This document shows positions 1-8,971 of a DNA stretch of 64,000 bases, in pieces. Numbering within the stretch: position 1 is the stretch's first letter; each line of letters opens with the position of its first letter. Source of the stretch: a virus (lineage: Duplodnaviria; Caudoviricetes); the IMG/VR virus record IMGVR_UViG_3300042139_000023; one strand, written 5' to 3'. The position numbers were made by a program, and so were the translations under genes. The notes under the pieces were generated by a model. It ran no database searches, was not told the origin of the DNA, and saw only the letters and a list, made by a program, of their open reading frames with translations.

Positions 1-351
1 ACCGGCAAGTCGGTTCCCGCCCTGGTCATCTTCCAGACCGACGGCTCGCCCAGGGACAAGAAGGCCGCCGCCCGGCGCATCTGCCAGTACGCGAACCTGC
101 CGATCTTCTGGCAGTTCGTCGGCTTCGGCGAGGACCGCGAGTACGACTACGACGACGAGGAGGGCCTGGGCTTCCTCCAGCGCCTCGACGACATCCCGGT
201 CCCGCAGTACCGGCCCATCGACAACTCGGACTTCTTCGCCGTCGGCCAGGACCCGACCGCGATGCGTGACGCCGAGCTGTACCGGCGCCTGATGAACGAG
301 TTCCCGGGCTGGCTGGCCAAGGCCCGCCAGATGGGCATCGTCCGCGTCTGA
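1..351 (+). CDS. vWA-domain protein (TerF-associated vWA type), 3' end only
   Basis: Frame +1 reads ...PALVIFQTDGSP...LPIFWQFVGFG...FLQRLDD...IDNSDFF...ELYRRLMNEFPGWL...stop at 349-351; typical C-terminal half of actinobacterial Ter-associated vWA proteins. Not in the ORF track because it is truncated by the window edge. Confidence 0.75.
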   Translation, partial: TGKSVPALVIFQTDGSPRDKKAAARRICQYANLPIFWQFVGFGEDREYDYDDEEGLGFLQRLDDIPVPQYRPIDNSDFFAVGQDPTAMRDAELYRRLMNEFPGWLAKARQMGIVRV

Positions 352-1108: not shown

Positions 1109-1113
1109 AAGAC

Positions 1114-1143
1114 TTGCGATCCCCTCGCAGGATCCCGTAATGT
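1114..1143 (+). promoter_or_regulatory. sigma70/HrdB-type promoter of the RNA array
   Basis: TTGCGA (1114-1119), 18-nt spacer, TAATGT (1138-1143); predicted start near 1150-1151, exactly where RNA unit 1 begins. Confidence 0.7.
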
Positions 1144-1150
1144 TTTATCT

Positions 1151-1228
1151 GCACCCCGGAGCGTTCGTGCGAACGGTTACTTCATCCTGCGAAGAGAACA
1201 CCGGGCGCCATCTTGTTGGCCGGGGCGC
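1151..1228 (+). ncRNA. Y-RNA-like RNA unit 1 (short, no T/D arms)
   Basis: Ends pair (CCCCGG/CCGGGG); shares boxes CCGGAGCG..AACGGTTACTTC and CACCGGG..GTTGGCCGG with units 2 and 3; inner stem GCG-AA-CGGT/ACCG-GG-CGC; apical CTTC-ATCCTGC-GAAG hairpin. Confidence 0.75.
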
Positions 1229-1230
1229 GT

Positions 1231-1394
1231 AACAGAAGATCCAGAAGGGTTACCGGAGCGTTTTGAGAAACGGTTACTTCTTCTGGAAAAAGAAACTGAG
1301 GGCGGGTTCGAATCCCGTCGTTGCCGACGCTTGGCATAACTGGCAAACACCGGGTCTCGCCTAGTTGGCCGGTGGCTCCTCTGGATCTTCTGTT
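1231..1394 (+). ncRNA. Y-RNA-like RNA unit 2 with T arm and anticodon-arm-like hairpin
   Basis: Perfect 15-bp closing stem AACAGAAGATCCAGA (1231-1245)/TCTGGATCTTCTGTT (1380-1394); same conserved boxes; T arm GCGGG-TTCGAAT-CCCGT (1302-1318). Confidence 0.8.
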
Positions 1395-1399
1395 TCTCG

Positions 1400-1581
1400 G
1401 TGTGTGGGTGAGGTGCCCGGAGCGTCTTGGCAACGGTTACTTCACAGTGGAACCAAATGTTTCAGGTTCGAGTCCTGATCCGCGAGCTTGCTCGTGGATA
1501 GCTCAATTGGCAGAGCGTTGGTCGAGGAAGGTTCGAAAGAACCACCGGGGCCTATCTGTTGGCCGGGCACCCCACACATAC
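1400..1581 (+). ncRNA. yrlA: YrlA-like Y RNA unit 3 with complete circularly permuted tRNA module
   Basis: T arm TCAGG-TTCGAGT-CCTGA (1462-1478), acceptor-like stem TCCGCGAG/CTCGTGGA closed by CTTG loop (1479-1498), TA, D arm GCTC-AATTGGCA-GAGC (1501-1516), ACCAA (1452-1456)/TTGGT (1518-1522) in the anticodon-stem position; adjacent to a Ro60 gene. Confidence 0.85.
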
Positions 1582-1592
1582 ATCGAGACGCG

Positions 1593-1625
1593 CCCCCTGC
1601 TCCCATCCCGGGACAGGGGGTTTTT
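1593..1625 (+). terminator. intrinsic terminator between RNA array and Ro60 CDS
   Basis: CCCCCTG-C-TCCC-loop-GGGA-CAGGGGG followed by TTTTT. Confidence 0.75.
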
Positions 1626-1651
1626 GCGTTTCAAGGAAAGGGAGAAGGGTC

Positions 1652-3343
1652 ATGGCAACGTTCAACAAGCCGGGCGCGAAGGCGCGCGTCACGTCCCAGG
1701 TGAAGACGACCGGCACGACCAAGACGTTCGAAGGCGCGAGCGGTTTCACGCGCAGCCCGCTGTCGGACCTCTACCTGCTCTCGGTGTCCAACCTCGTCGG
1801 CAAGGACGCGTTCTACGAGCGCGCCAGCGACCGCAACGAGCGCTACGTGGACCTCCTGCACGGCACCGCCCTGCTGGAGCAGGAGCACGTCACGGCCATG
1901 CTGCCGTGGCTGCGCACCGACGGCTACATGCGCACCACGTCGCTCCTCGCGGCGGCCGAGGTCGCCAAGACGCTCTGCGACGAGCACCGGTACAAGGGCG
2001 TCGAGGACATGGTCGACGGGGTGCTCCAGCGTGCCGACGAGCCGGGCGAGTTCATCGCCTACTGGTTCTCGATCGCGGGCAAGGCGTGGCCGAAGCGCTA
2101 CCTGCCGGTCAAGAAGGGCCTGAAGCGGGCCGTCGCACGCCTGTACACCGAGTACTCGTACAGCAAGTACGACTCGCCGCGCCGGGCCTACCGGTTCGCC
2201 GACGTGATCGACATCGTCCACCCGGCGCCGACCGCCCAGTGGCAGTCGGACCTGTTCCGGCTGATCCTCGACCGGCGCCACGGGCACAGCGGCGCGATCA
2301 CGCCGACCCTGTCGATGACGCGCAACCAGCGCGAGTGGCGCCAGGCGGCTGCGGGTGTCCCGCGCAAGGCGTCGGCCGAGTACATCTACGGGTCGGGCCT
2401 GATCGCCCCGCAGGTGCTCAAGGACGCGGGCCTCACGTGGGAGGACGTGCTGTCGGAGCTGGGCGGCAAGGTCGACAAGAAGCTGCTGTGGGAGGCGATG
2501 ATCCCGACCATGGCGCCGGGCGCGCTGATCAAGAACCTGCGCAACTTCGACGAGGCCGGTGTCTCCGACGCCTCGGCCGACGCGGTGGCGAAGGTGCTCT
2601 CGGACAGCGAGCGCGTGCGGAAGGCCCGGCTCTTCCCGTACCGCTTCCTGTCGGCGTACCGCGCCCTGTCGTCGCTGCGCTGGGGCCACACCCTGGAGCG
2701 CGGCCTGGCGGGTTCGCTGGAGCTGGTTCCGACCCTGCGGGGGAAGACCCTGATCCTCGTGGACCGCAGCCCGTCCATGTTCCCGGGCATGTGGGGTTCC
2801 ACCCCGCACAAGGGGGACATCTCGCTGGCCGACCAGGCGGCGCTCTTCGGGGCGGCGCTGGCCGTGAAGGCGCAGGACGCCAAGCTCGTCGAGTTCGGTG
2901 GCGACCAGGCGCTCGGCGGCTGGAACAGCCGGGGTGGCGGCGCCGGTTCGCGCACGGTCAACGTGCCGCGCGGGGCGAGCGTCCTGAAGATCGTCGAGAG
3001 CTTCGGCCCGTCGATCAACGGGACCGACATCCCGCGCGCCGTGAAGGACAACTTCACGAGCGAGTTCAACCGCGTCGTGATCGTCACGGACGAGCAGTCG
3101 CGGCCGGGCTGGCTCCCGTCGAACATGGGCGGGCGCACCTACGGCATGCCGGAGACGCGGATCGACGACCTGATCCCGAAGACCGTTCCGGTCTACCTGT
3201 GGAACATGGCGGGCTACGCGGGCTCCATCCTGGAGACCGGTGGCACCAACCGTCACTGCTTCGGTGGCCTCTCGGACGCGAGCTTCGGCCTGATCCAGCT
3301 TCTGGAGCAGGGCAAGAACGCGCCGTGGCCGTGGATGAAGTGA
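1652..3343 (+). CDS. rsr: Ro60/TROVE-domain RNA-binding protein with C-terminal vWA (Rsr orthologue)
   Basis: MATFN..TFEGASGF..SDLYLLSVSN..FYE..WLRTDGYMRT..QRADEPGEFIAYW..LYTEYSYSKYD..LIKNLRNF..RLFPYRFLSAY, then vWA LILVDRSPSM..GTDI..VVIVTDEQ..WNMAGY; RBS then ATG 1652. Confidence 0.9.
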   Translation: MATFNKPGAKARVTSQVKTTGTTKTFEGASGFTRSPLSDLYLLSVSNLVGKDAFYERASDRNERYVDLLHGTALLEQEHVTAMLPWLRTDGYMRTTSLLAAAEVAKTLCDEHRYKGVEDMVDGVLQRADEPGEFIAYWFSIAGKAWPKRYLPVKKGLKRAVARLYTEYSYSKYDSPRRAYRFADVIDIVHPAPTAQWQSDLFRLILDRRHGHSGAITPTLSMTRNQREWRQAAAGVPRKASAEYIYGSGLIAPQVLKDAGLTWEDVLSELGGKVDKKLLWEAMIPTMAPGALIKNLRNFDEAGVSDASADAVAKVLSDSERVRKARLFPYRFLSAYRALSSLRWGHTLERGLAGSLELVPTLRGKTLILVDRSPSMFPGMWGSTPHKGDISLADQAALFGAALAVKAQDAKLVEFGGDQALGGWNSRGGGAGSRTVNVPRGASVLKIVESFGPSINGTDIPRAVKDNFTSEFNRVVIVTDEQSRPGWLPSNMGGRTYGMPETRIDDLIPKTVPVYLWNMAGYAGSILETGGTNRHCFGGLSDASFGLIQLLEQGKNAPWPWMK

Positions 3344-3355
3344 CGTAGGGCACAG

Positions 3356-3446: not shown

Positions 3447-3845
3447 ATGGCAAATTCATTCGAGACCGGCGGGGAAGTCCTGACGGTCGGCAGCAAGGTC
3501 GTCGTGTTCGACGGCAACAGCCAGCGCGAGCTGGCCATCACCAGCATCGGAACCAAGCGGGTCTTCATCGAGTCGGCGTACGGCTTCAGGCCGGTCCCCT
3601 TCAGCAAGGAGGACCGCACGTCCCAGCAGGGGGCCTACCACCAGTACTTCAAGACGCTGACCGAAGTGGCCCTGGAGCAGGAGCGGGCGGTCGCGAAGTC
3701 CCGCCTGCGCGACCTGGGGATCGAGGCCAGGATTTCCGGCCACGGCAAGGACGGCCTGGACCCCTACTCCGTGGACACGCTGCGCGAGATCGCCGGGATC
3801 CTGGAGGCTGCGAAGCTCAAGTTCGAGCAATCCCAACAAGGTTGA
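3447..3845 (+). CDS. hypothetical protein (132 aa)
   Basis: AGGAG RBS; upstream TAGGAT -10 at 3410-3415. Confidence 0.7.
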   Translation: MANSFETGGEVLTVGSKVVVFDGNSQRELAITSIGTKRVFIESAYGFRPVPFSKEDRTSQQGAYHQYFKTLTEVALEQERAVAKSRLRDLGIEARISGHGKDGLDPYSVDTLREIAGILEAAKLKFEQSQQG

Positions 3846-5779: not shown

Positions 5780-6786
5780 ATGGCCGACACGGAAAGCGAC
5801 CCGGAGCGCATCAGGGTCATACGAGAACTCCTGGCTGAAGCCGAGGGTGAAAGCTCCCACACGATGGAGGACGCGGTCGCCCGGCAAGGAGCCGTGACGT
5901 TCCTGAGCTGGAAGCTGCGCGATGCGGAAAGGATGCAGGCCCATGGAGGGTGAGAATCTGCCGGAAGTCCGGCTGGAATGCCTGGACGAGGAGGCGGCGG
6001 AGAAGGTCATGGAGCACGTTCGTGGAGTGCCCGAGGCCAGGCGAGGAAACAACCACGCCCGCCGCGAAGGGGCGACCATCGTCATCACGTACACCAACAA
6101 GATGTGGCCCTACGACCTGGCCGACATGGCGGGCGAGCTGAGGCTGGCCGGAGATGCGGAGTCGGCGGCGGTGTTCGCATGCCTCTGAACGAACCCTCCG
6201 ACCTGGGTGGCGGCCGTGGCCTGTACATGTACGGCGGCAGCGAGGTGAAGATGCGGGACGGGGGACGCCTGCGCGTGCAGGACTCCTCGGCTGCCGAGAG
6301 TCCGCACCTCCGGCTGTACTTCGAGAAGGGTGAGCATGGAAGCCCGGAGCCGCACCTGAACCTGGAAGCCGTCATCGAGCTGCGCGACCGCCTGAACCAG
6401 GCGATCCGCGCCATCAGGGAAGACTGGGGCGACGCCGTCGTGCGCGCCGCCTACAGGGAGGTCGCCCGTAACCGGGCGGCAGAGCGAGAAGGAGAAGAGA
6501 CGTGCTGAAGCACGAGGAGGACGCCCGGAAGGTGCACCCGAAGGCTGAGGACTTCCGGCCCGTCATGGCCGGTCTTCCGCTGGCCAAGCGGGTCGTCGGC
6601 TGGACTTTCTCCGTCCCCCGCGACCCCGGGCAGGACTACAGCCACGACGGCTACTCGTGGGTGGACCTCAGCGGCGACGTGCCGAACGACACCTACAACA
6701 CCGAGCATGTGGCCGCGAGCGTCATGAAGGCGCACCTGCGGCAGAAGAACCAGGTGCCCGTGAACGAACTGGAGAAGCGCGCGTGA
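5780..6786 (+). CDS. four small hypothetical ORFs (5780-5953, 5943-6188, 6179-6508, 6502-6786)
   Basis: Chain of overlapping ORFs with RBSs and GC3 bias. Confidence 0.55.
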
Positions 6787-8429
6787 AGACCCTGCGTCCC
6801 TACCAGGAGGAGACGCGGCGCATCCTGGCCGGAGGTGGCATCAACGCCTCCGGCCTCGGTGCCGGTAAGACCGTCACCAGCGTTGAGGCGGTGCGTCTGC
6901 TCAAGCTCGGCCGCATGCCCCGCGTCCTCGTGGTGGCCCCGATCAACACCCTTGGTCAGTGGCAGCGGACCTTCGAGGAGCAGTTCCCGTCGCTTGCGGA
7001 GAAGGGCCTTACCCGGCTCCTCGGGACGCACCGCAAGGACACCGAGAACTGGACCGCACTGACCTCCCGAGCGAAGCCGCCCGGCGTCTTCATCATCGGA
7101 TGGAACGCCATGCACGGCGGTATACCCGAGGACATCCGGCGCCGGGCGTCCAACGGCCGCAACGCTCTGGCCAAGGAGCCCAAGGCGACCAAGGCGGCTG
7201 CCCTGAAGGCGATGAAGGAGGGCACCGTCCCGCCGTGGACCCGGACCGGAACCTGGGATCTGGTCATCCTCGACGAGTCCCACCGGATGGTGAACCGGCA
7301 CGGCGTCCCCCGTTACGTCCTGAAGTGCATCAAGGCGGACCGCTGGCTCCTCCTGTCGGCCACGCCTGGCGGCAACAAGCCGGAGGGCCTGTGGACCCCG
7401 CTGAACCTGATCTGGCCCGACCGGTATCCGGCGTTCCACGACTGGGCCCGCGCGCACTTCCACATGGACGACAAGAGCTACTACAAGGCGGGCAAGAAGG
7501 TCGAGGTCGAGACCATCGGGGACGAGCTGGTTCCCGGCGGCGTCTGGCGCGACATCCCGGCCGTGGTCCGGTATCGCACGGAAGAGGTCGTTGACCAGCT
7601 TCCGCCGGTCATCGAGCGGGAGATCCTGGTACCGCTCGGCGCTGAGCAGCTTGAGCAGTACCGCGACTTCGAGGGGCAGTCCCTGGCATGGCTGGCTGAT
7701 CAGCCAGTCGCCGCACCGCTACCGGTGGAACAGCGCACCCGACTGCGACAGGCCGCCCTGGGGACGCTTCGGGCCGACGAGGTGACCAGCAGGAAGAAGA
7801 GCTGGGTCACCCCACAGAAGCACTTCGAGCTGCGTATGGACGCCAGGGTGTACGACCTGAAGGTGTTGGAGGAGAAGACCGACGAGGACACCGGCCAGAC
7901 GAAGGTCCACGTCTCCTACGCGATCGACAAGCTGGAGATCTCCTACGAGGAGAACGCCCCGCAGCCGAAGCTGACGGCACTGATCGACCTGCTCGCCGAC
8001 CTTCCTCCAGAGGAGCCCCTTCTGGTGTGGACACACTCCGCACGCTGGGCCCGGATGGCAGAGAAGGCGCTCGGCTCGCAGGCCGTGGCCTGGACGATGA
8101 AGACCACGTCGGCCAAGCGGAAGCAGATCGAGACGGGGTTCGGCACCGAGTGGCGGGTGCTGATCGCTCAGCTCCAGTCCCTCTCGGAGGGCGTGGACTG
8201 GCTGAAGGATGTCTGCCGGTGTGAGGCGATCATCTCCTACACCGAGGACAACGTGATGAACGAGCAGGCGGAGGGGCGCCTGCACCGGCCTGGCCAGACG
8301 TCACCGGTTCAGCGCTGGAGATTCACGAGCGTCGGCACGATCGACGACGAGGTATACCTGAACAACCTGGAGAAGAGGTCCCGGATGGGATCGCTCTACC
8401 GGGACGACTCGGAAAGAGAGAAGGCGTAA
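6783..8429 (+). CDS. SNF2-family (SF2) helicase
   Basis: LRPYQ Q-motif, GLGAGKT, LVILDESHRM (DExH), LSATP, QSLSEGVD, QAEGRLHRPGQ. Confidence 0.9.
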   Translation: MKTLRPYQEETRRILAGGGINASGLGAGKTVTSVEAVRLLKLGRMPRVLVVAPINTLGQWQRTFEEQFPSLAEKGLTRLLGTHRKDTENWTALTSRAKPPGVFIIGWNAMHGGIPEDIRRRASNGRNALAKEPKATKAAALKAMKEGTVPPWTRTGTWDLVILDESHRMVNRHGVPRYVLKCIKADRWLLLSATPGGNKPEGLWTPLNLIWPDRYPAFHDWARAHFHMDDKSYYKAGKKVEVETIGDELVPGGVWRDIPAVVRYRTEEVVDQLPPVIEREILVPLGAEQLEQYRDFEGQSLAWLADQPVAAPLPVEQRTRLRQAALGTLRADEVTSRKKSWVTPQKHFELRMDARVYDLKVLEEKTDEDTGQTKVHVSYAIDKLEISYEENAPQPKLTALIDLLADLPPEEPLLVWTHSARWARMAEKALGSQAVAWTMKTTSAKRKQIETGFGTEWRVLIAQLQSLSEGVDWLKDVCRCEAIISYTEDNVMNEQAEGRLHRPGQTSPVQRWRFTSVGTIDDEVYLNNLEKRSRMGSLYRDDSEREKA

Positions 8430-8971
8430 TGCGAACCTGGGAAGCCGACGTCATCGCGGCCAAGGCGCACAAGGATCAGTTCGACAAGAACGGGGTGCCG
8501 TACATCGAGCACGCGCGGGCGGTCTCCGCTGGCCTCGCGTCGTTCTCGGAACCCGTCCGGGTTGCCGGGCTGCTGCACGACGTCGTCGAGGACACCGACG
8601 AGACCCTGGAGTCCCTGCGGGCGGCGGGCGTCACCGAGATCTCCCTGGAGATCATCGACGCGGTCACGAAGGTGCCGGGATCGACGAAGCGTGAGCAGAT
8701 CGAACGGGTCATCCAGGGCGGCTACGCGGCCATGCTGGTGAAGACGAGCGACAACGCCCACAACTCCCTGCCCGATCGCCTCAAGCACCTGGACGGGCCC
8801 ACCAGGGACCGCCTGGAGCGCAAGTACAAGGAGGCCCGGCGGATGATGTGGCCGCACCTGCGCCCCGCCGACATCTACGAGATCCTGCGGATCGTGAACC
8901 CCTCCCTCACCCCCGAGCTGAGCGAGCACGAGGCGGGCCGGAACAAGGGGGTGCGATGGACGGACGAGTGA
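8429..8971 (+). CDS. HD-domain phosphohydrolase, SpoT/Mesh1-like small alarmone hydrolase
   Basis: AHKDQ.DK.GVPYIEH..AGLLHDVVEDT..IDAVTK..LVKTSDNAHN. Confidence 0.8.
   Translation: MRTWEADVIAAKAHKDQFDKNGVPYIEHARAVSAGLASFSEPVRVAGLLHDVVEDTDETLESLRAAGVTEISLEIIDAVTKVPGSTKREQIERVIQGGYAAMLVKTSDNAHNSLPDRLKHLDGPTRDRLERKYKEARRMMWPHLRPADIYEILRIVNPSLTPELSEHEAGRNKGVRWTDE

What the first reader, a model, noticed from the sequence alone, without database searches (positions are those of the whole stretch)
1178..1300. Anticodon-arm-like hairpins in Y-like units 1 and 2, possible anticodon-nuclease decoys
Seen: right after the conserved TAC, unit 2 has a 5-bp stem TTCTT/AAGAA (1278-1294) with a 7-nt loop CT-GGA-AA. 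This is a canonical Y32-U33-anticodon-R37 loop reading GGA (Ser), followed by a 6-7 nt variable-loop-like spacer and the T arm. Unit 1 has CTTC/GAAG with 7-nt loop AT-CCT-GC (U33, CCT = Arg AGG, G37). Unit 3 has only a 6-nt loop here. Established: described YrlA RNAs mimic the D/T/acceptor elbow and lack an anticodon loop. Inference: these units may present anticodon loops as decoys or sensors for host tRNA-cleaving toxins (VapC, PrrC/RloC-like) or for modification enzymes.
Basis: partly seen in the sequence, partly recalled or inferred. Interest (0 to 1): 0.7.

Follow-up and report, generated by a model that had tools for sequence, protein, structure and literature searches.

The report
Anticodon-like loops in phage Y RNAs
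The two small hairpins are real and belong to a conserved element of the Y RNAs that sit next to Ro60 genes in actinobacteria and their phages: a copy of a tRNA's anticodon arm whose three central loop bases vary freely. These RNAs therefore mimic more of a tRNA than was described, but nothing here shows that they act as decoys for tRNA-cutting toxins.

Summary
The window is part of a 168-kb Streptomyces phage record. Bases 1150-1575 hold three tandem Y-RNA units in front of a Ro60/TROVE gene (1652-3346).

**Observation:**
- Unit 1: CUUC[AUCCUGC]GAAG, 1180-1194.
- Unit 2: UUCUU[CUGGAAA]AAGAA, 1278-1294, then a 6-7-nt spacer and a T arm.

Alone they are thermodynamically unremarkable. Comparison makes them significant. 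I took 419 unique Y-RNA units from 162 Ro60 loci, both viral contigs and actinobacterial chromosomes.
- The hairpin right after the invariant UAC-UUC has a 7-nt loop in 35% of units, against 5-7% in controls.
- In those loops U33 is present in 86%, position 37 is a purine in 79%, and positions 34-36 vary most.
- In units with a T arm the consensus loop is CU-NNN-AA and the spacer to the T stem is mostly 5 nt.
- The inner stem pairs covary.

**Identity:** the element sits where Chen et al. 2014 drew the "V" stem-loop of YrlA, but it reads as an anticodon stem-loop. In many D-arm-bearing units it forms a composite 5-bp anticodon stem.

**Function:** host chromosomes carry the same element, so it is not a phage-specific counter-defence. 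The decoy or sensor idea is untested.

Verdict: new variant of a known kind.

The parts
1150..1229 (+). Y-RNA unit 1, short type: Ro-stalk boxes plus the hairpin only, with no T or D arm
   Evidence: 5' box CCGGAGCG and 3' box TTGGCCGG repeat in all three units. The fold closes 1150-1229. Conserved in relatives.
1177..1183 (+). Conserved TTAC-TTC of unit 1, the YUAY motif of YrlA plus the invariant UUC
   Evidence: Exact 12-nt repeat AACGGTTACTTC in all three units. NTAC[TC]TC occurs 394 times upstream of Ro on the sense strand, against 16 antisense and 11 in the CDS, across 159 loci. YUAY is described in PMC4201824.
1180..1194 (+). Unit 1 hairpin: CUUC / 7-nt loop AUCCUGC / GAAG (A32, U33, CCU, G37, C38)
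   Evidence: Sequence and fold. Relatives keep AU-NNN-GC with a variable middle. The same subtype occurs in other short units, e.g. ATTTGGC five times.
1240..1385 (+). Y-RNA unit 2: stalk, anticodon-like hairpin, T arm and a covarying helix. It has no D stem or acceptor-like hairpin.
   Evidence: Folds and alignment.
1278..1294 (+). Unit 2 hairpin: UUCUU / 7-nt loop CUGGAAA / AAGAA (C32, U33, GGA, A37, A38)
   Evidence: Sequence. JustBecause, Kela, L128 and L143 have UUCUUU[CUGCAAA]AA(A/G)GAA. L143 keeps the hairpin although its T arm is lost. Streptomyces chromosomal locus L288 has UUCUU[CUGCAAA]AAGAA.
1295..1301 (+). Unit 2 spacer ACUGAG(G) between the hairpin and the T stem, in the position of a tRNA variable loop
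   Evidence: Sequence. The family mode for this spacer is 5 nt, range mostly 4-6. Unit 2 is 1-2 nt longer.
1302..1318 (+). Unit 2 T arm: GCGGG / UUCGAAU / CCCGU
   Evidence: Sequence, direct repeat with the unit 3 T arm (family D6), folds.
1321..1346 (+). Unit 2 helix UUGCC (1321-1325) with GGCAA (1342-1346), enclosing a loop that keeps the D-loop-like UUGGCA
   Evidence: Compensatory changes in relatives: CUGCC/GGCAG in Frankenweenie, CGCC/GGCG in JustBecause. This is my reading of the alignment.
1408..1575 (+). Y-RNA unit 3: canonical circularly permuted tRNA-like YrlA unit with an open anticodon stem
   Evidence: Rfam YrlA match 1454-1524, 33.6 bits, E = 1.8e-5, below the gathering score of 69. 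Fold z = -2.9. The stem ACCAA (1452-1456) with UUGGU (1518-1522) covaries as ACCGA/UCGGU in JustBecause.
1441..1452 (+). Unit 3 equivalent position: only a 3-4-bp mini-hairpin (loop of 6 or 3 nt), not anticodon-like
   Evidence: Sequence. Isolated fold is not stable.
1590..1627 (+). Intrinsic terminator-like hairpin plus U run, ending the array
   Evidence: Terminator scan hit at 1605-1621 plus T run. Conserved in relatives.
1652..3346 (+). Ro60 (TROVE plus vWA) gene, the expected protein partner of the three RNAs
   Evidence: Translation P0001. Pfam TROVE E = 1.3e-14. 92% identical to the annotated Ro-like RNA-binding protein of phage Frankenweenie.

Best explanation
The hairpins are the local copies of a family-wide element of actinobacterial and actinophage Y RNAs (YrlA family): a tRNA anticodon stem-loop homologue placed right after the invariant YUAC-UUC. 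It keeps the scaffold of an anticodon loop (7 nt, pyrimidine 32, U33, purine 37, A38) and leaves positions 34-36 free.

Together with the T arm (unit 2), or alone (unit 1), it forms the effector-facing module of a Y RNA. The other end of that RNA, the stalk carrying the CCGG(A/U)GCG box, is expected to bind the phage Ro60.

The most likely working mode is inferred, not shown. The loop is displayed in a U-turn, anticodon-like conformation, so that the Ro60-Y RNA particle is taken for a tRNA by a tRNA-binding host factor. Candidates are position-37 modification enzymes or other anticodon-arm readers. It does not decode codons.

Shown here: presence, conservation, covariation and tRNA-like dimensions. 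Inferred: Ro60 binding, the U-turn fold, and recognition by a protein.
For: - **Context.** Three units sit on the same strand directly 5' of a TROVE gene. Unit 3 matches Rfam YrlA.
- **Homology.** The motif NTAC[TC]TC marks units specifically upstream of Ro: 394 sense, 16 antisense, 11 in the CDS.
- **Loop length.** 7-nt loops occur in 147 of 419 units, against 5.4% and 7.1% in two controls.
- **Loop signature.** In units with a T arm: C32 64/80, U33 68/80, A37 50/80, A38 64/80, with 34-36 variable. In short units: U33 59/67, purine 37 56/67.
- **Variable middle.** Column entropy peaks at positions 34-36. There are 31 different triplets among 92 CU-type loops. A34 appears in only 2 of 92; as I recall, A34 is rare in real tRNAs too.
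- **U33 is not explained by pairing with 37.** U33 stays U where 37 is C or U, in 17 of 92 loops.
- **Spacer.** The distance to the T stem is mostly 5 nt.
- **Covariation.** In an alignment not selected for pairing, the two inner stem pairs show 19 and 15 double changes, and 0 of 500 shuffles reach the score.
- **Composite anticodon stem.** In D-arm-bearing units of this class, nt 27-28 after the D arm pair with 42-43 (100% and 95%, with CG/GC/UA covariation). Positions 39-40 pair locally (89%). The result is a composite 5-bp stem closed by the 7-nt loop.
- **Independent tRNA finder.** ARAGORN uses the hairpin as the anticodon arm in 27 of 37 calls.
- **Function beyond a tRNA relic.** Short units without a T arm keep the loop, and L143 unit 2 kept it after losing its T arm. 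The same RNAs cap other helices with stable tetraloops: GAAA in unit 3, GCAA in JustBecause. A weak 7-nt loop here is therefore a choice, not a default.
Against: - Only about a third of units carry a 7-nt loop. Others have loops of 3-12 nt or no hairpin, so the element is not obligatory.
- The window's hairpins are A/U-rich, 4-5 bp, and marginally stable alone. MFE folds sometimes prefer a neighbouring register with a 6-nt loop.
- Unit 1 has A32 and only 4 bp.
- The unit 2 spacer is 6-7 nt, not 5, and unit 2 has no D stem.
- No expression, probing, modification or binding data exist for these RNAs.
- The invariant UUC cannot covary, so the outer three pairs of the closed hairpin are not proven. 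In D-arm-bearing units they compete with the post-D strand.
- Satis unit 2 has a more stable alternative fold with a 4-nt loop.
Confidence: 0.55

Rival explanations
1. Structural relic only. The hairpin is what is left of the anticodon arm of the tRNA, or tRNA dimer, from which YrlA evolved. It is kept because it braces the junction between stalk and module. No factor reads it as an anticodon arm.
For: - The tRNA-dimer origin model for YrlA is cited in bioRxiv 10.1101/312249.
- ARAGORN can thread many units into a full cloverleaf.
- Positions 34-36 look unconstrained.
- Many units do without the element.
Against: - A bracing hairpin could use any stable loop. Instead C32, U33, A37 and A38 are held, while other helices of the same RNAs use GNRA or CUUG tetraloops.
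- The 7-nt U33 loop persists in short units that have lost every other tRNA part, and in L143 unit 2 after loss of the T arm.
Confidence: 0.22
2. The loops are baits for anticodon-directed nucleases (VapC, MazF, PrrC/RloC-like, colicin-like). They act either as decoys that spare tRNAs or as sensors whose cleavage switches the Ro60 particle.
For: - The loops look like anticodon loops, and the triplet changes even between close relatives. An arms race with toxins of variable specificity would give this pattern.
- Ro60/Y RNA loci are linked to tRNA-damage repair in Salmonella, where the rsr-yrlBA-rtcBA operon is induced by tRNA halves (PMC7790460, listed; abstract only read).
- Sister phages JustBecause, Kela and L128 carry an RNA ligase (PF09414, E = 1.2e-17) between the array and Ro.
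Against: - The element is equally present in host chromosomal loci, so it is not a phage counter-defence as such.
- A stoichiometric decoy would have to compete with the whole tRNA pool.
- This phage record has no RNA ligase or RtcB.
- The stems are A/U-rich and unlike host tRNA anticodon stems.
- Variation at 34-36 is just as well explained by lack of constraint.
- No cleavage data exist.
Confidence: 0.12
3. They are genuine tRNA genes, or pseudogenes, as GenBank annotates the homologues: tRNA-Cys in JustBecause, tRNA-Pro in Frankenweenie.
For: - ARAGORN calls a 93-nt tRNA-Pro at 1395-1487 in the window. It also homologous units as tRNAs.
- Records annotate such calls.
Against: - No Rfam tRNA hit at the gathering score in the window or on the units of ten related loci, while true neighbouring tRNAs score 42-70 bits.
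- The supposed acceptor and D parts are the conserved Ro-stalk box.
- Units 1 and 2 have no acceptor stem or D stem.
- The window's tRNA-Pro call straddles the unit 3 stalk and T arm.
Confidence: 0.03
4. Chance hairpins in a U-rich/A-rich stretch, with no biological meaning.
For: Isolated folds are no better than shuffles. Alternative registers exist.
Against: - Five- to sevenfold enrichment of 7-nt loops over controls, with 86% U33.
- Covariation in the stem.
- Conservation across Ro proteins only 35-40% identical.
Confidence: 0.02

Closest known systems
YrlA of Salmonella Typhimurium (Rfam RF02553; structure PDB 6CU1, as cited in bioRxiv 10.1101/312249)
   Same: - Encoded beside Ro60 on the same strand.
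- 5' Ro-contact box and conserved YUAY (UUAC here).
- Circularly permuted T arm, closed acceptor-like hairpin and D arm, as in unit 3.
   Different: - Salmonella YrlA has an open anticodon-like stem that runs into the Ro stalk, and it lacks an anticodon loop.
- Units 1 and 2 here, and a large class of actinobacterial units, close a 7-nt anticodon-like loop at this place.
- The Rfam model scores unit 3 at only 33.6 bits (gathering score 69) and misses units 1 and 2.
The "V" stem-loop of YrlA RNAs (Chen et al. 2014, PMC4201824)
   Same: Same position: it starts at the conserved YUAY and lies immediately 5' of the T arm. [quoted passage not shown]
   Different: - It was interpreted as the counterpart of a tRNA variable arm.
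- The data here fit an anticodon arm followed by a normal variable loop: 5-bp stem, 7-nt CU-NNN-AA loop, 5-nt spacer to the T stem, and 27-28 pairing with 42-43.
- I found no statement of this in the papers I could search.
Mycobacterium smegmatis YrlA and YrlB (PMC4201824)
   Same: - Actinobacterial, several Y RNAs processed from one precursor upstream of rsr, and Rsr-bound.
- YrlA is cut by RNase P, and its 5' half receives CCA. This shows that such units are treated as tRNAs in vivo.
   Different: - I could not obtain its sequence, so I do not know whether it carries the closed 7-nt loop.
- The phage units are untested experimentally.
Deinococcus radiodurans Yrn1
   Same: It can be drawn with an "anticodon arm" of 5 bp.
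   Different: Its loop is 6 nt. The arm lies between the T-like and D-like elements, in a different orientation, and the authors consider it an independent lineage.
Anticodon stem-loop of bacterial tRNAs
   Same: - 5-bp stem and 7-nt loop with pyrimidine 32, U33, purine 37 and A38.
- 4-5-nt variable loop before the T stem.
- A34 is rare here, as I recall it is in real tRNAs. G36 goes with a non-A 37 in 5 of 5 loops, in line with the G36-G37 rule of tRNAs as I recall it.
   Different: - There is no acceptor end, so no decoding.
- The stem is partly built from two strands in D-arm-bearing units.
- The window's stems are A/U-rich, and unit 1 has A32 and 4 bp.
Phage answers to anticodon nucleases (T4 Pnkp/Rnl1 repair of PrrC damage; phage tRNAs with altered anticodon loops). 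Recalled from my own knowledge, not tested here.
   Same: Conceptual analogue for the decoy or sensor idea: a phage-borne tRNA-like molecule or repair enzyme dealing with anticodon-loop cleavage.
   Different: Those systems repair or replace tRNAs. Nothing shows that Y RNA loops are cut or protective, and the element is not phage-specific.

Membership tests
Y RNA / YrlA family (Chen 2014; Rfam RF02553) | Encoded next to, and on the same strand as, a Ro60 (TROVE) gene | tested here: met
   The array at 1150-1575 lies 77 nt upstream of the TROVE gene 1652-3346 on the + strand.
Y RNA / YrlA family (Chen 2014; Rfam RF02553) | Conserved YUAY motif | tested here: met
   UUAC in all three units. NTAC[TC]TC is specific to the sense strand upstream of Ro in 152 of 159 loci.
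Y RNA / YrlA family (Chen 2014; Rfam RF02553) | 5' Ro-contact box resembling GGUCCGA / GNCGAAN0-1G, and a stalk formed by the 5' and 3' ends | tested here: inconclusive
   - The boxes CCGGAGCG (5') and UUGGCCGG (3') repeat in all units and fold into a closing stalk.
- Relatives have GGUGCGA.
- The published motif is not matched literally, and Ro binding is not testable here.
Y RNA / YrlA family (Chen 2014; Rfam RF02553) | Permuted tRNA-like module: T arm, closed acceptor-like hairpin, D arm | tested here: met
   Met for unit 3. Unit 2 has only the T arm plus a D-loop-like UUGGCA. Unit 1 has none and is a YrlB-like short unit.
Y RNA / YrlA family (Chen 2014; Rfam RF02553) | Score at or above the Rfam gathering threshold (69 bits) | tested here: not met
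   No hit at the gathering score. Unit 3 scores 33.6 bits. No actinobacterial unit in ten related loci reaches it either, so the model appears not to cover this branch.
tRNA anticodon stem-loop (structural motif) | 7-nt loop with U at position 2 (U33) and a purine at position 6 (R37) | tested here: met
   Unit 1 AUCCUGC and unit 2 CUGGAAA. Family: 147 of 419 units with 7-nt loops, U33 127/147, R37 116/147.
tRNA anticodon stem-loop (structural motif) | 5-bp stem and pyrimidine at position 32 | tested here: inconclusive
   Unit 2 has 5 bp and C32. Unit 1 has 4 bp and A32. Family: 5 bp is the commonest stem length in T-arm units, and C32 occurs in 64/80.
tRNA anticodon stem-loop (structural motif) | 4-5-nt variable loop between the arm and the T stem | tested here: inconclusive
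   Unit 2 has 6-7 nt. The family mode is 5 nt: 30 units with 5, 15 with 4 and 17 with 6.
tRNA anticodon stem-loop (structural motif) | Stem supported by covariation | tested here: met
   The inner two pairs covary, with 0 of 500 shuffles reaching the score. 27-43 and 28-42 covary with the post-D strand. The outer UUC is invariant, so it gives no information.
tRNA gene (Rfam RF00005) | Cloverleaf with acceptor stem and D arm, scoring at or above the gathering score | tested here: not met
   No tRNA hit in the window at the gathering score. The best tRNA-clan hit on unit 2 is tRNA-Sec at 17.1 bits, E = 1.5. The ARAGORN tRNA-Pro 1395-1487 overlaps unit 3.
Anticodon-nuclease decoy or sensor | Cleavage of the loop by a tRNA-targeting nuclease, and a protective or signalling effect | not testable with these tools
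   No sequence-based test exists. Context is mixed: RNA ligase in sister phages, none here, and the element is also chromosomal.

The most novel reading that the evidence does not exclude
A large branch of bacterial and phage Y RNAs carries a complete, nicked tRNA body including a functional anticodon-loop mimic whose "anticodon" diversifies between strains. Ro60 particles would use it to be read by anticodon-specific proteins: tRNA-cleaving toxins, position-37 modification enzymes, or even aminoacyl-tRNA synthetases acting on the RNase P-cut, CCA-tailed half seen in M. smegmatis. This would make the Ro60-Y RNA particle a sensor or bait for attacks on the tRNA pool. Phages would carry their own panel of two such loops per array.
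Probability: 0.12. Interest if true: 0.85.

Novelty: new variant of a known kind. Interest (0 to 1): 0.55.

Why it matters
Y RNAs are thought to tether Ro60 to effectors, but the effector of the tRNA-like YrlA module is unknown. The published view is that YrlA mimics the tRNA elbow and lacks an anticodon loop.

If a large actinobacterial and phage branch also displays an anticodon-loop mimic, the list of candidate partners changes. It would then include proteins that read the anticodon arm: t6A or i6A enzymes, anticodon nucleases, synthetases and the ribosome.

The idea becomes directly testable in tractable organisms (M. smegmatis, S. lividans and their phages).

It also has a practical side. 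These units are being annotated as tRNA genes in phage genomes.

Tried and rejected
- **Rfam at the gathering score.** No hit in the window. No YrlA hit on ten related loci. The curated model does not reach this branch.
- **Pattern scan of viral contigs** with CCGGWGCG...CGGTTAC. Most of the 117 stretches were chance hits in GC-rich DNA. Only L037, L043, L080 and L085 were useful.
- **Single-protein locus search** found only 5 loci. An 8-protein alignment was needed.
- **Energy of the isolated hairpins.** Not significant, so energy cannot carry the claim.
- **Promoter scan.** The conserved TTGCGA-N18-TAATGT at 1113-1142 remains only a candidate.
- **RNA-repair genes in this phage.** No RNA ligase (PF09414) or RtcB.
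- **Supplement of Chen 2014.** Not held. I could not check whether M. smegmatis YrlA has the 7-nt loop.
- **A fully local 5-bp hairpin for D-arm-bearing units.** Rejected as the only fold, because nt 42-43 covary with the post-D strand.
- **Reading the loop as a U33-A37-closed triloop.** Rejected, because U33 stays U when 37 is C or U.
- **Satis unit 2 as an example of a CU-CUG-GA loop.** Dropped, because a competing 8-bp/4-nt-loop fold is more stable.
Full report
**What is there**

The window is part of a 168-kb IMG/VR virus record. The stretch 1100-1660 is 95.6% identical to Streptomyces phage Frankenweenie and about 85% identical to JustBecause and Kela.

Bases 1109-1651 are non-coding and lie directly 5' of a 563-aa TROVE-domain protein (1652-3346). 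That protein is 92% identical to the annotated Ro-like RNA-binding protein of Frankenweenie.

The spacer holds three tandem units. All share a 5' box CCGGAGCG, the exact 12-mer AACGGTTACTTC and a 3' box ending in TTGGCCGG. Each unit folds into a stalk closed by its own ends.
- Unit 3 contains a circularly permuted tRNA-like module: T arm, closed acceptor-like hairpin, D arm. It is the only part that matches Rfam YrlA (33.6 bits, E = 1.8e-5, below the gathering score of 69).
- A terminator-like hairpin follows at about 1590-1627.
- ARAGORN's single "tRNA-Pro" in the window (1395-1487) is a misreading of unit 3.

**The observation**

- Unit 2: TTCTT 1278-1282, CTGGAAA 1283-1289, AAGAA 1290-1294, then ACTGAG(G) and a T arm at 1302-1318.
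- Unit 1: CTTC 1180-1183, ATCCTGC 1184-1190, GAAG 1191-1194.
- Unit 3: only a 3-4-bp mini-hairpin at this place.

Folded alone the two hairpins are weak (-2.0 kcal/mol) and no better than shuffled sequence (z = -1.0 and -0.6). By energy they could be chance, so the case has to rest on comparison.

**Close relatives**

In Frankenweenie, two IMG/VR relatives (L138, L139), L143, L128, JustBecause and Kela, all three units are syntenic.
- Unit 1 keeps CUUC/G(A/G)AG and a 7-nt loop AU-NNN-GC. The middle reads CCU, UCU, CAU, UUG or CUG.
- Unit 2 keeps the hairpin with CUGGAAA or CUGCAAA. In the JustBecause group the stem is 6 bp through a matched U and A insertion, and the loop stays 7 nt.
- In L143 (Ro 73% identical) unit 2 has lost its T arm but keeps UUCUUU[CUGCAAA]AAGGAA. 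The hairpin is therefore more persistent than the tRNA body next to it.
- GenBank annotates the JustBecause copy of unit 2 as tRNA-Cys (anticodon GCA) and the Frankenweenie copy of unit 3 as tRNA-Pro.

**The wider family**

I searched with an alignment of eight phage Ro proteins. It brought in 79 viral-contig loci and 80 actinobacterial chromosomal loci, including Streptomyces, Kitasatospora, Actinomadura, Micromonospora, Nocardiopsis and Rhodococcus. I added eleven annotated phage loci.

In the 900 nt upstream of Ro, the motif NTAC[TC]TC occurs 394 times on the sense strand, 16 times antisense, and 11 times in the same length of CDS. It marks Y-RNA units, usually 2-4 per locus. It corresponds to the conserved YUAY of Chen et al. 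2014, which they say begins the "V" loop.

A rule-based search took the longest contiguous stem starting at the C or UUC right after UA, with no preference for loop size. On 419 unique units it gave these results.
- A 7-nt loop in 147 units (35%), against 5.4% in shuffles and 7.1% at 2,066 CTTC sites inside the Ro genes of the same loci.
- In the 80 such units that are followed by a T arm: C32 64, U33 68, A37 50 (purine 60), A38 64. Positions 34-36 take many values. The spacer to the T stem is 4-6 nt, with a mode of 5.
- In the 67 short units: U33 59 and purine 37 56. Subtypes are CU-NNN-AA, AU-NNN-GC (the type of unit 1) and UUUGGGU.
- In the control, U at loop position 2 is 15%.
- After reduction to 278 representatives at 75% identity, 82 have a 7-nt loop and 69 of these have U33. 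Of 162 loci, 101 have at least one such loop.

It is not met, although loop length is far from uniform.

**Is the stem real, and what is it in tRNA terms?**

I aligned all 67 units in which UAC and the T loop are 26 nt apart, whether or not they can pair. The proposed 5-bp stem is paired in 83.6% of cells. Its two inner pairs change on both sides in 19 and 15 sequences (CG/GC/UA, AU/CG/UA). None of 500 shuffles reaches the observed covariation, and slid partners score far lower. Column entropy is highest at loop positions 34-36 (1.5-1.9 bits) and low at 32, 33 and 38.

For 163 units with a recognisable D arm I also asked what the strand after the D arm pairs with. Nucleotides 27-29 pair with the three bases just before the variable spacer (41-43) in 86%, 86% and 81%, against 47-58% when partners are permuted. 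Covariation is rich. Two classes separate.
- **UAC-to-T-loop distance of 20-24 nt.** All five pairs 27-31/39-43 form (81-96%). This is the open anticodon stem of canonical YrlA, and unit 3 of the window belongs here. Its ACCAA/UUGGU becomes ACCGA/UCGGU in JustBecause.
- **Distance of 26 nt.** 27-43 and 28-42 still pair with the post-D strand (100% and 95%; CG 44/GC 16, and CG 39/UA 14/GC 4). Positions 39-40 instead pair with the two bases that follow the invariant UUC (89%, covarying), closing the 7-nt loop.

The simplest reading of the second class is a composite 5-bp anticodon stem. Its 5' strand is interrupted where the Ro stalk enters. So these RNAs mimic an entire tRNA, anticodon loop included.

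ARAGORN, which knows nothing of this argument, units tRNAs. In 27 of them it takes this hairpin as the anticodon arm. Rfam's tRNA model gives no hit at its gathering score on the units of the ten loci I searched, while true neighbouring tRNAs there score 42-70 bits.

Unit 2 of the window has no D stem, so its hairpin is fully local. Unit 1 has nothing but the hairpin.

**Relation to the literature**

- Chen et al. [quoted passage not shown] They note an "anticodon arm" with a 6-nt loop only for Deinococcus Yrn1.
- The structure paper states that Salmonella YrlA lacks the anticodon loop, and that the AS, AC and VL regions vary in size.
- M. smegmatis YrlA is cut by RNase P, and its 5' half gains CCA. 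Such units are therefore treated as tRNAs in cells.
- In the papers I could search I found no statement that the V stem-loop carries an anticodon-loop signature or forms a composite anticodon stem.

The hairpin as an object is known. Its anticodon-arm identity appears to be new.

**How it most likely works**

Shown: presence, conservation of the loop scaffold, free variation of 34-36, covariation, tRNA-like spacing, and persistence without the tRNA body.

A34 is almost absent (2 of 92). Position 37 is never A when 36 is G (0 of 5, against 68 of 87 otherwise). U33 stays U even where 37 cannot pair with it (17 of 92), which argues against a simple extended stem with a triloop.

The same RNAs cap other helices with stable tetraloops: GAAA in unit 3, GCAA in JustBecause with compensatory stem changes. 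A weak 7-nt loop at this spot therefore looks selected.

My best reading (0.55) is that the loop is displayed like an anticodon loop and completes the tRNA disguise of the effector module. A tRNA-binding factor that reads the anticodon arm could then engage the Ro60 particle. It does not decode.

Alternatives:
- A structural relic that nobody reads (0.22).
- Real tRNA genes (0.03).
- Chance (0.02).

The bait idea has some context in its favour. An RNA ligase gene sits between array and Ro in JustBecause, Kela and L128. In Salmonella the rsr operon is linked to tRNA damage (PMC7790460, abstract only). The triplets also differ between close relatives.

It is weakened by several points. The element is present in host chromosomes. 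This phage has no ligase or RtcB. Unconstrained drift explains the variable triplets equally well.

**Verdict**

- The anticodon-arm interpretation is supported, and it generalises well beyond this phage.
- The premise about described YrlA needs correcting, because of the V stem-loop.
- The decoy or sensor function remains a hypothesis.

I rate the finding a new variant of a known kind, with moderate interest.

Noticed in passing
window 1395-1487; L004 1798-1888; L005 1644-1714; L133 1204-1275; L131 1269-1343; L135 1190-1263: Y-RNA units are annotated or predicted as tRNA genes. ARAGORN calls tRNA-Pro in the window. GenBank lists tRNA-Pro(tgg) in Frankenweenie, tRNA-Cys in JustBecause, tRNA-Arg(tct) in VanLee, tRNA-Arg(cct) in GiJojo and tRNA-Ser(gct) in Alone3. 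ARAGORN makes 37 such calls across the Ro loci collected. These inflate phage tRNA counts.
   Followed up: partly
L005 2038-2790, L006 2038-2790, L128 about 1750-2500: The sister phages JustBecause, Kela and IMG/VR contig L128 carry an RNA ligase gene (PF09414, E = 1.2e-17) between the Y-RNA array and Ro60. This window's phage and Frankenweenie lack it at that place, and the own record has no PF09414 or RtcB match.
   Followed up: partly
L138-L296, units upstream of Ro at about 1000-1450 of each locus: tRNA-like Y-RNA units of Actinobacteria fall into two architectures. One has an open 5-bp anticodon-like stem (UAC-to-T-loop distance 20-24 nt). The other has a composite stem in which 27-28 come from the post-D strand and the lower pairs from the 5' strand, closed by a 7-nt CU-NNN-AA loop (distance 26 nt). 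Many chromosomal loci carry one of each plus a short unit.
   Followed up: yes
window 1530-1543: Unit 3 has an extra GNRA-capped hairpin, GGUUC-GAAA-GAACC, between the tRNA-like module and the 3' stalk. JustBecause has GGCUC-GCAA-GAGCC, i.e. compensatory stem changes with the GNRA loop kept.
   Followed up: partly
window 1113-1142: TTGCGA-N18-TAATGT lies just upstream of unit 1. It is identical in all close relatives and also in the distant Satis group (L007 about 983-1012). It is a candidate promoter of the array, although the simple sigma-70 scan does not call it.
   Followed up: partly
window 3447-3845: The gene after Ro60 encodes a Phage_ProQ_C_like domain protein (PF24203, E = 1.7e-16). 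It may be a second RNA-binding protein in the same locus.
   Followed up: no
window 1-351 and 6657-8971: A vWA-TerF-like protein C-terminus lies upstream (PF10138). Downstream are an SNF2-family helicase (6657-8429) and an HD-domain protein (8429-8971).
   Followed up: no
L130, L131, L134, L135 (Streptomyces phages pSt2308, GiJojo, BRock, Alone3), about 700-1400: These phages carry arrays of four to six Y-RNA units with a different 5' box (GAUGCG) but the same (U/A)UACUUC. The arrays are embedded in large tRNA gene clusters on both sides of Ro60.
   Followed up: partly
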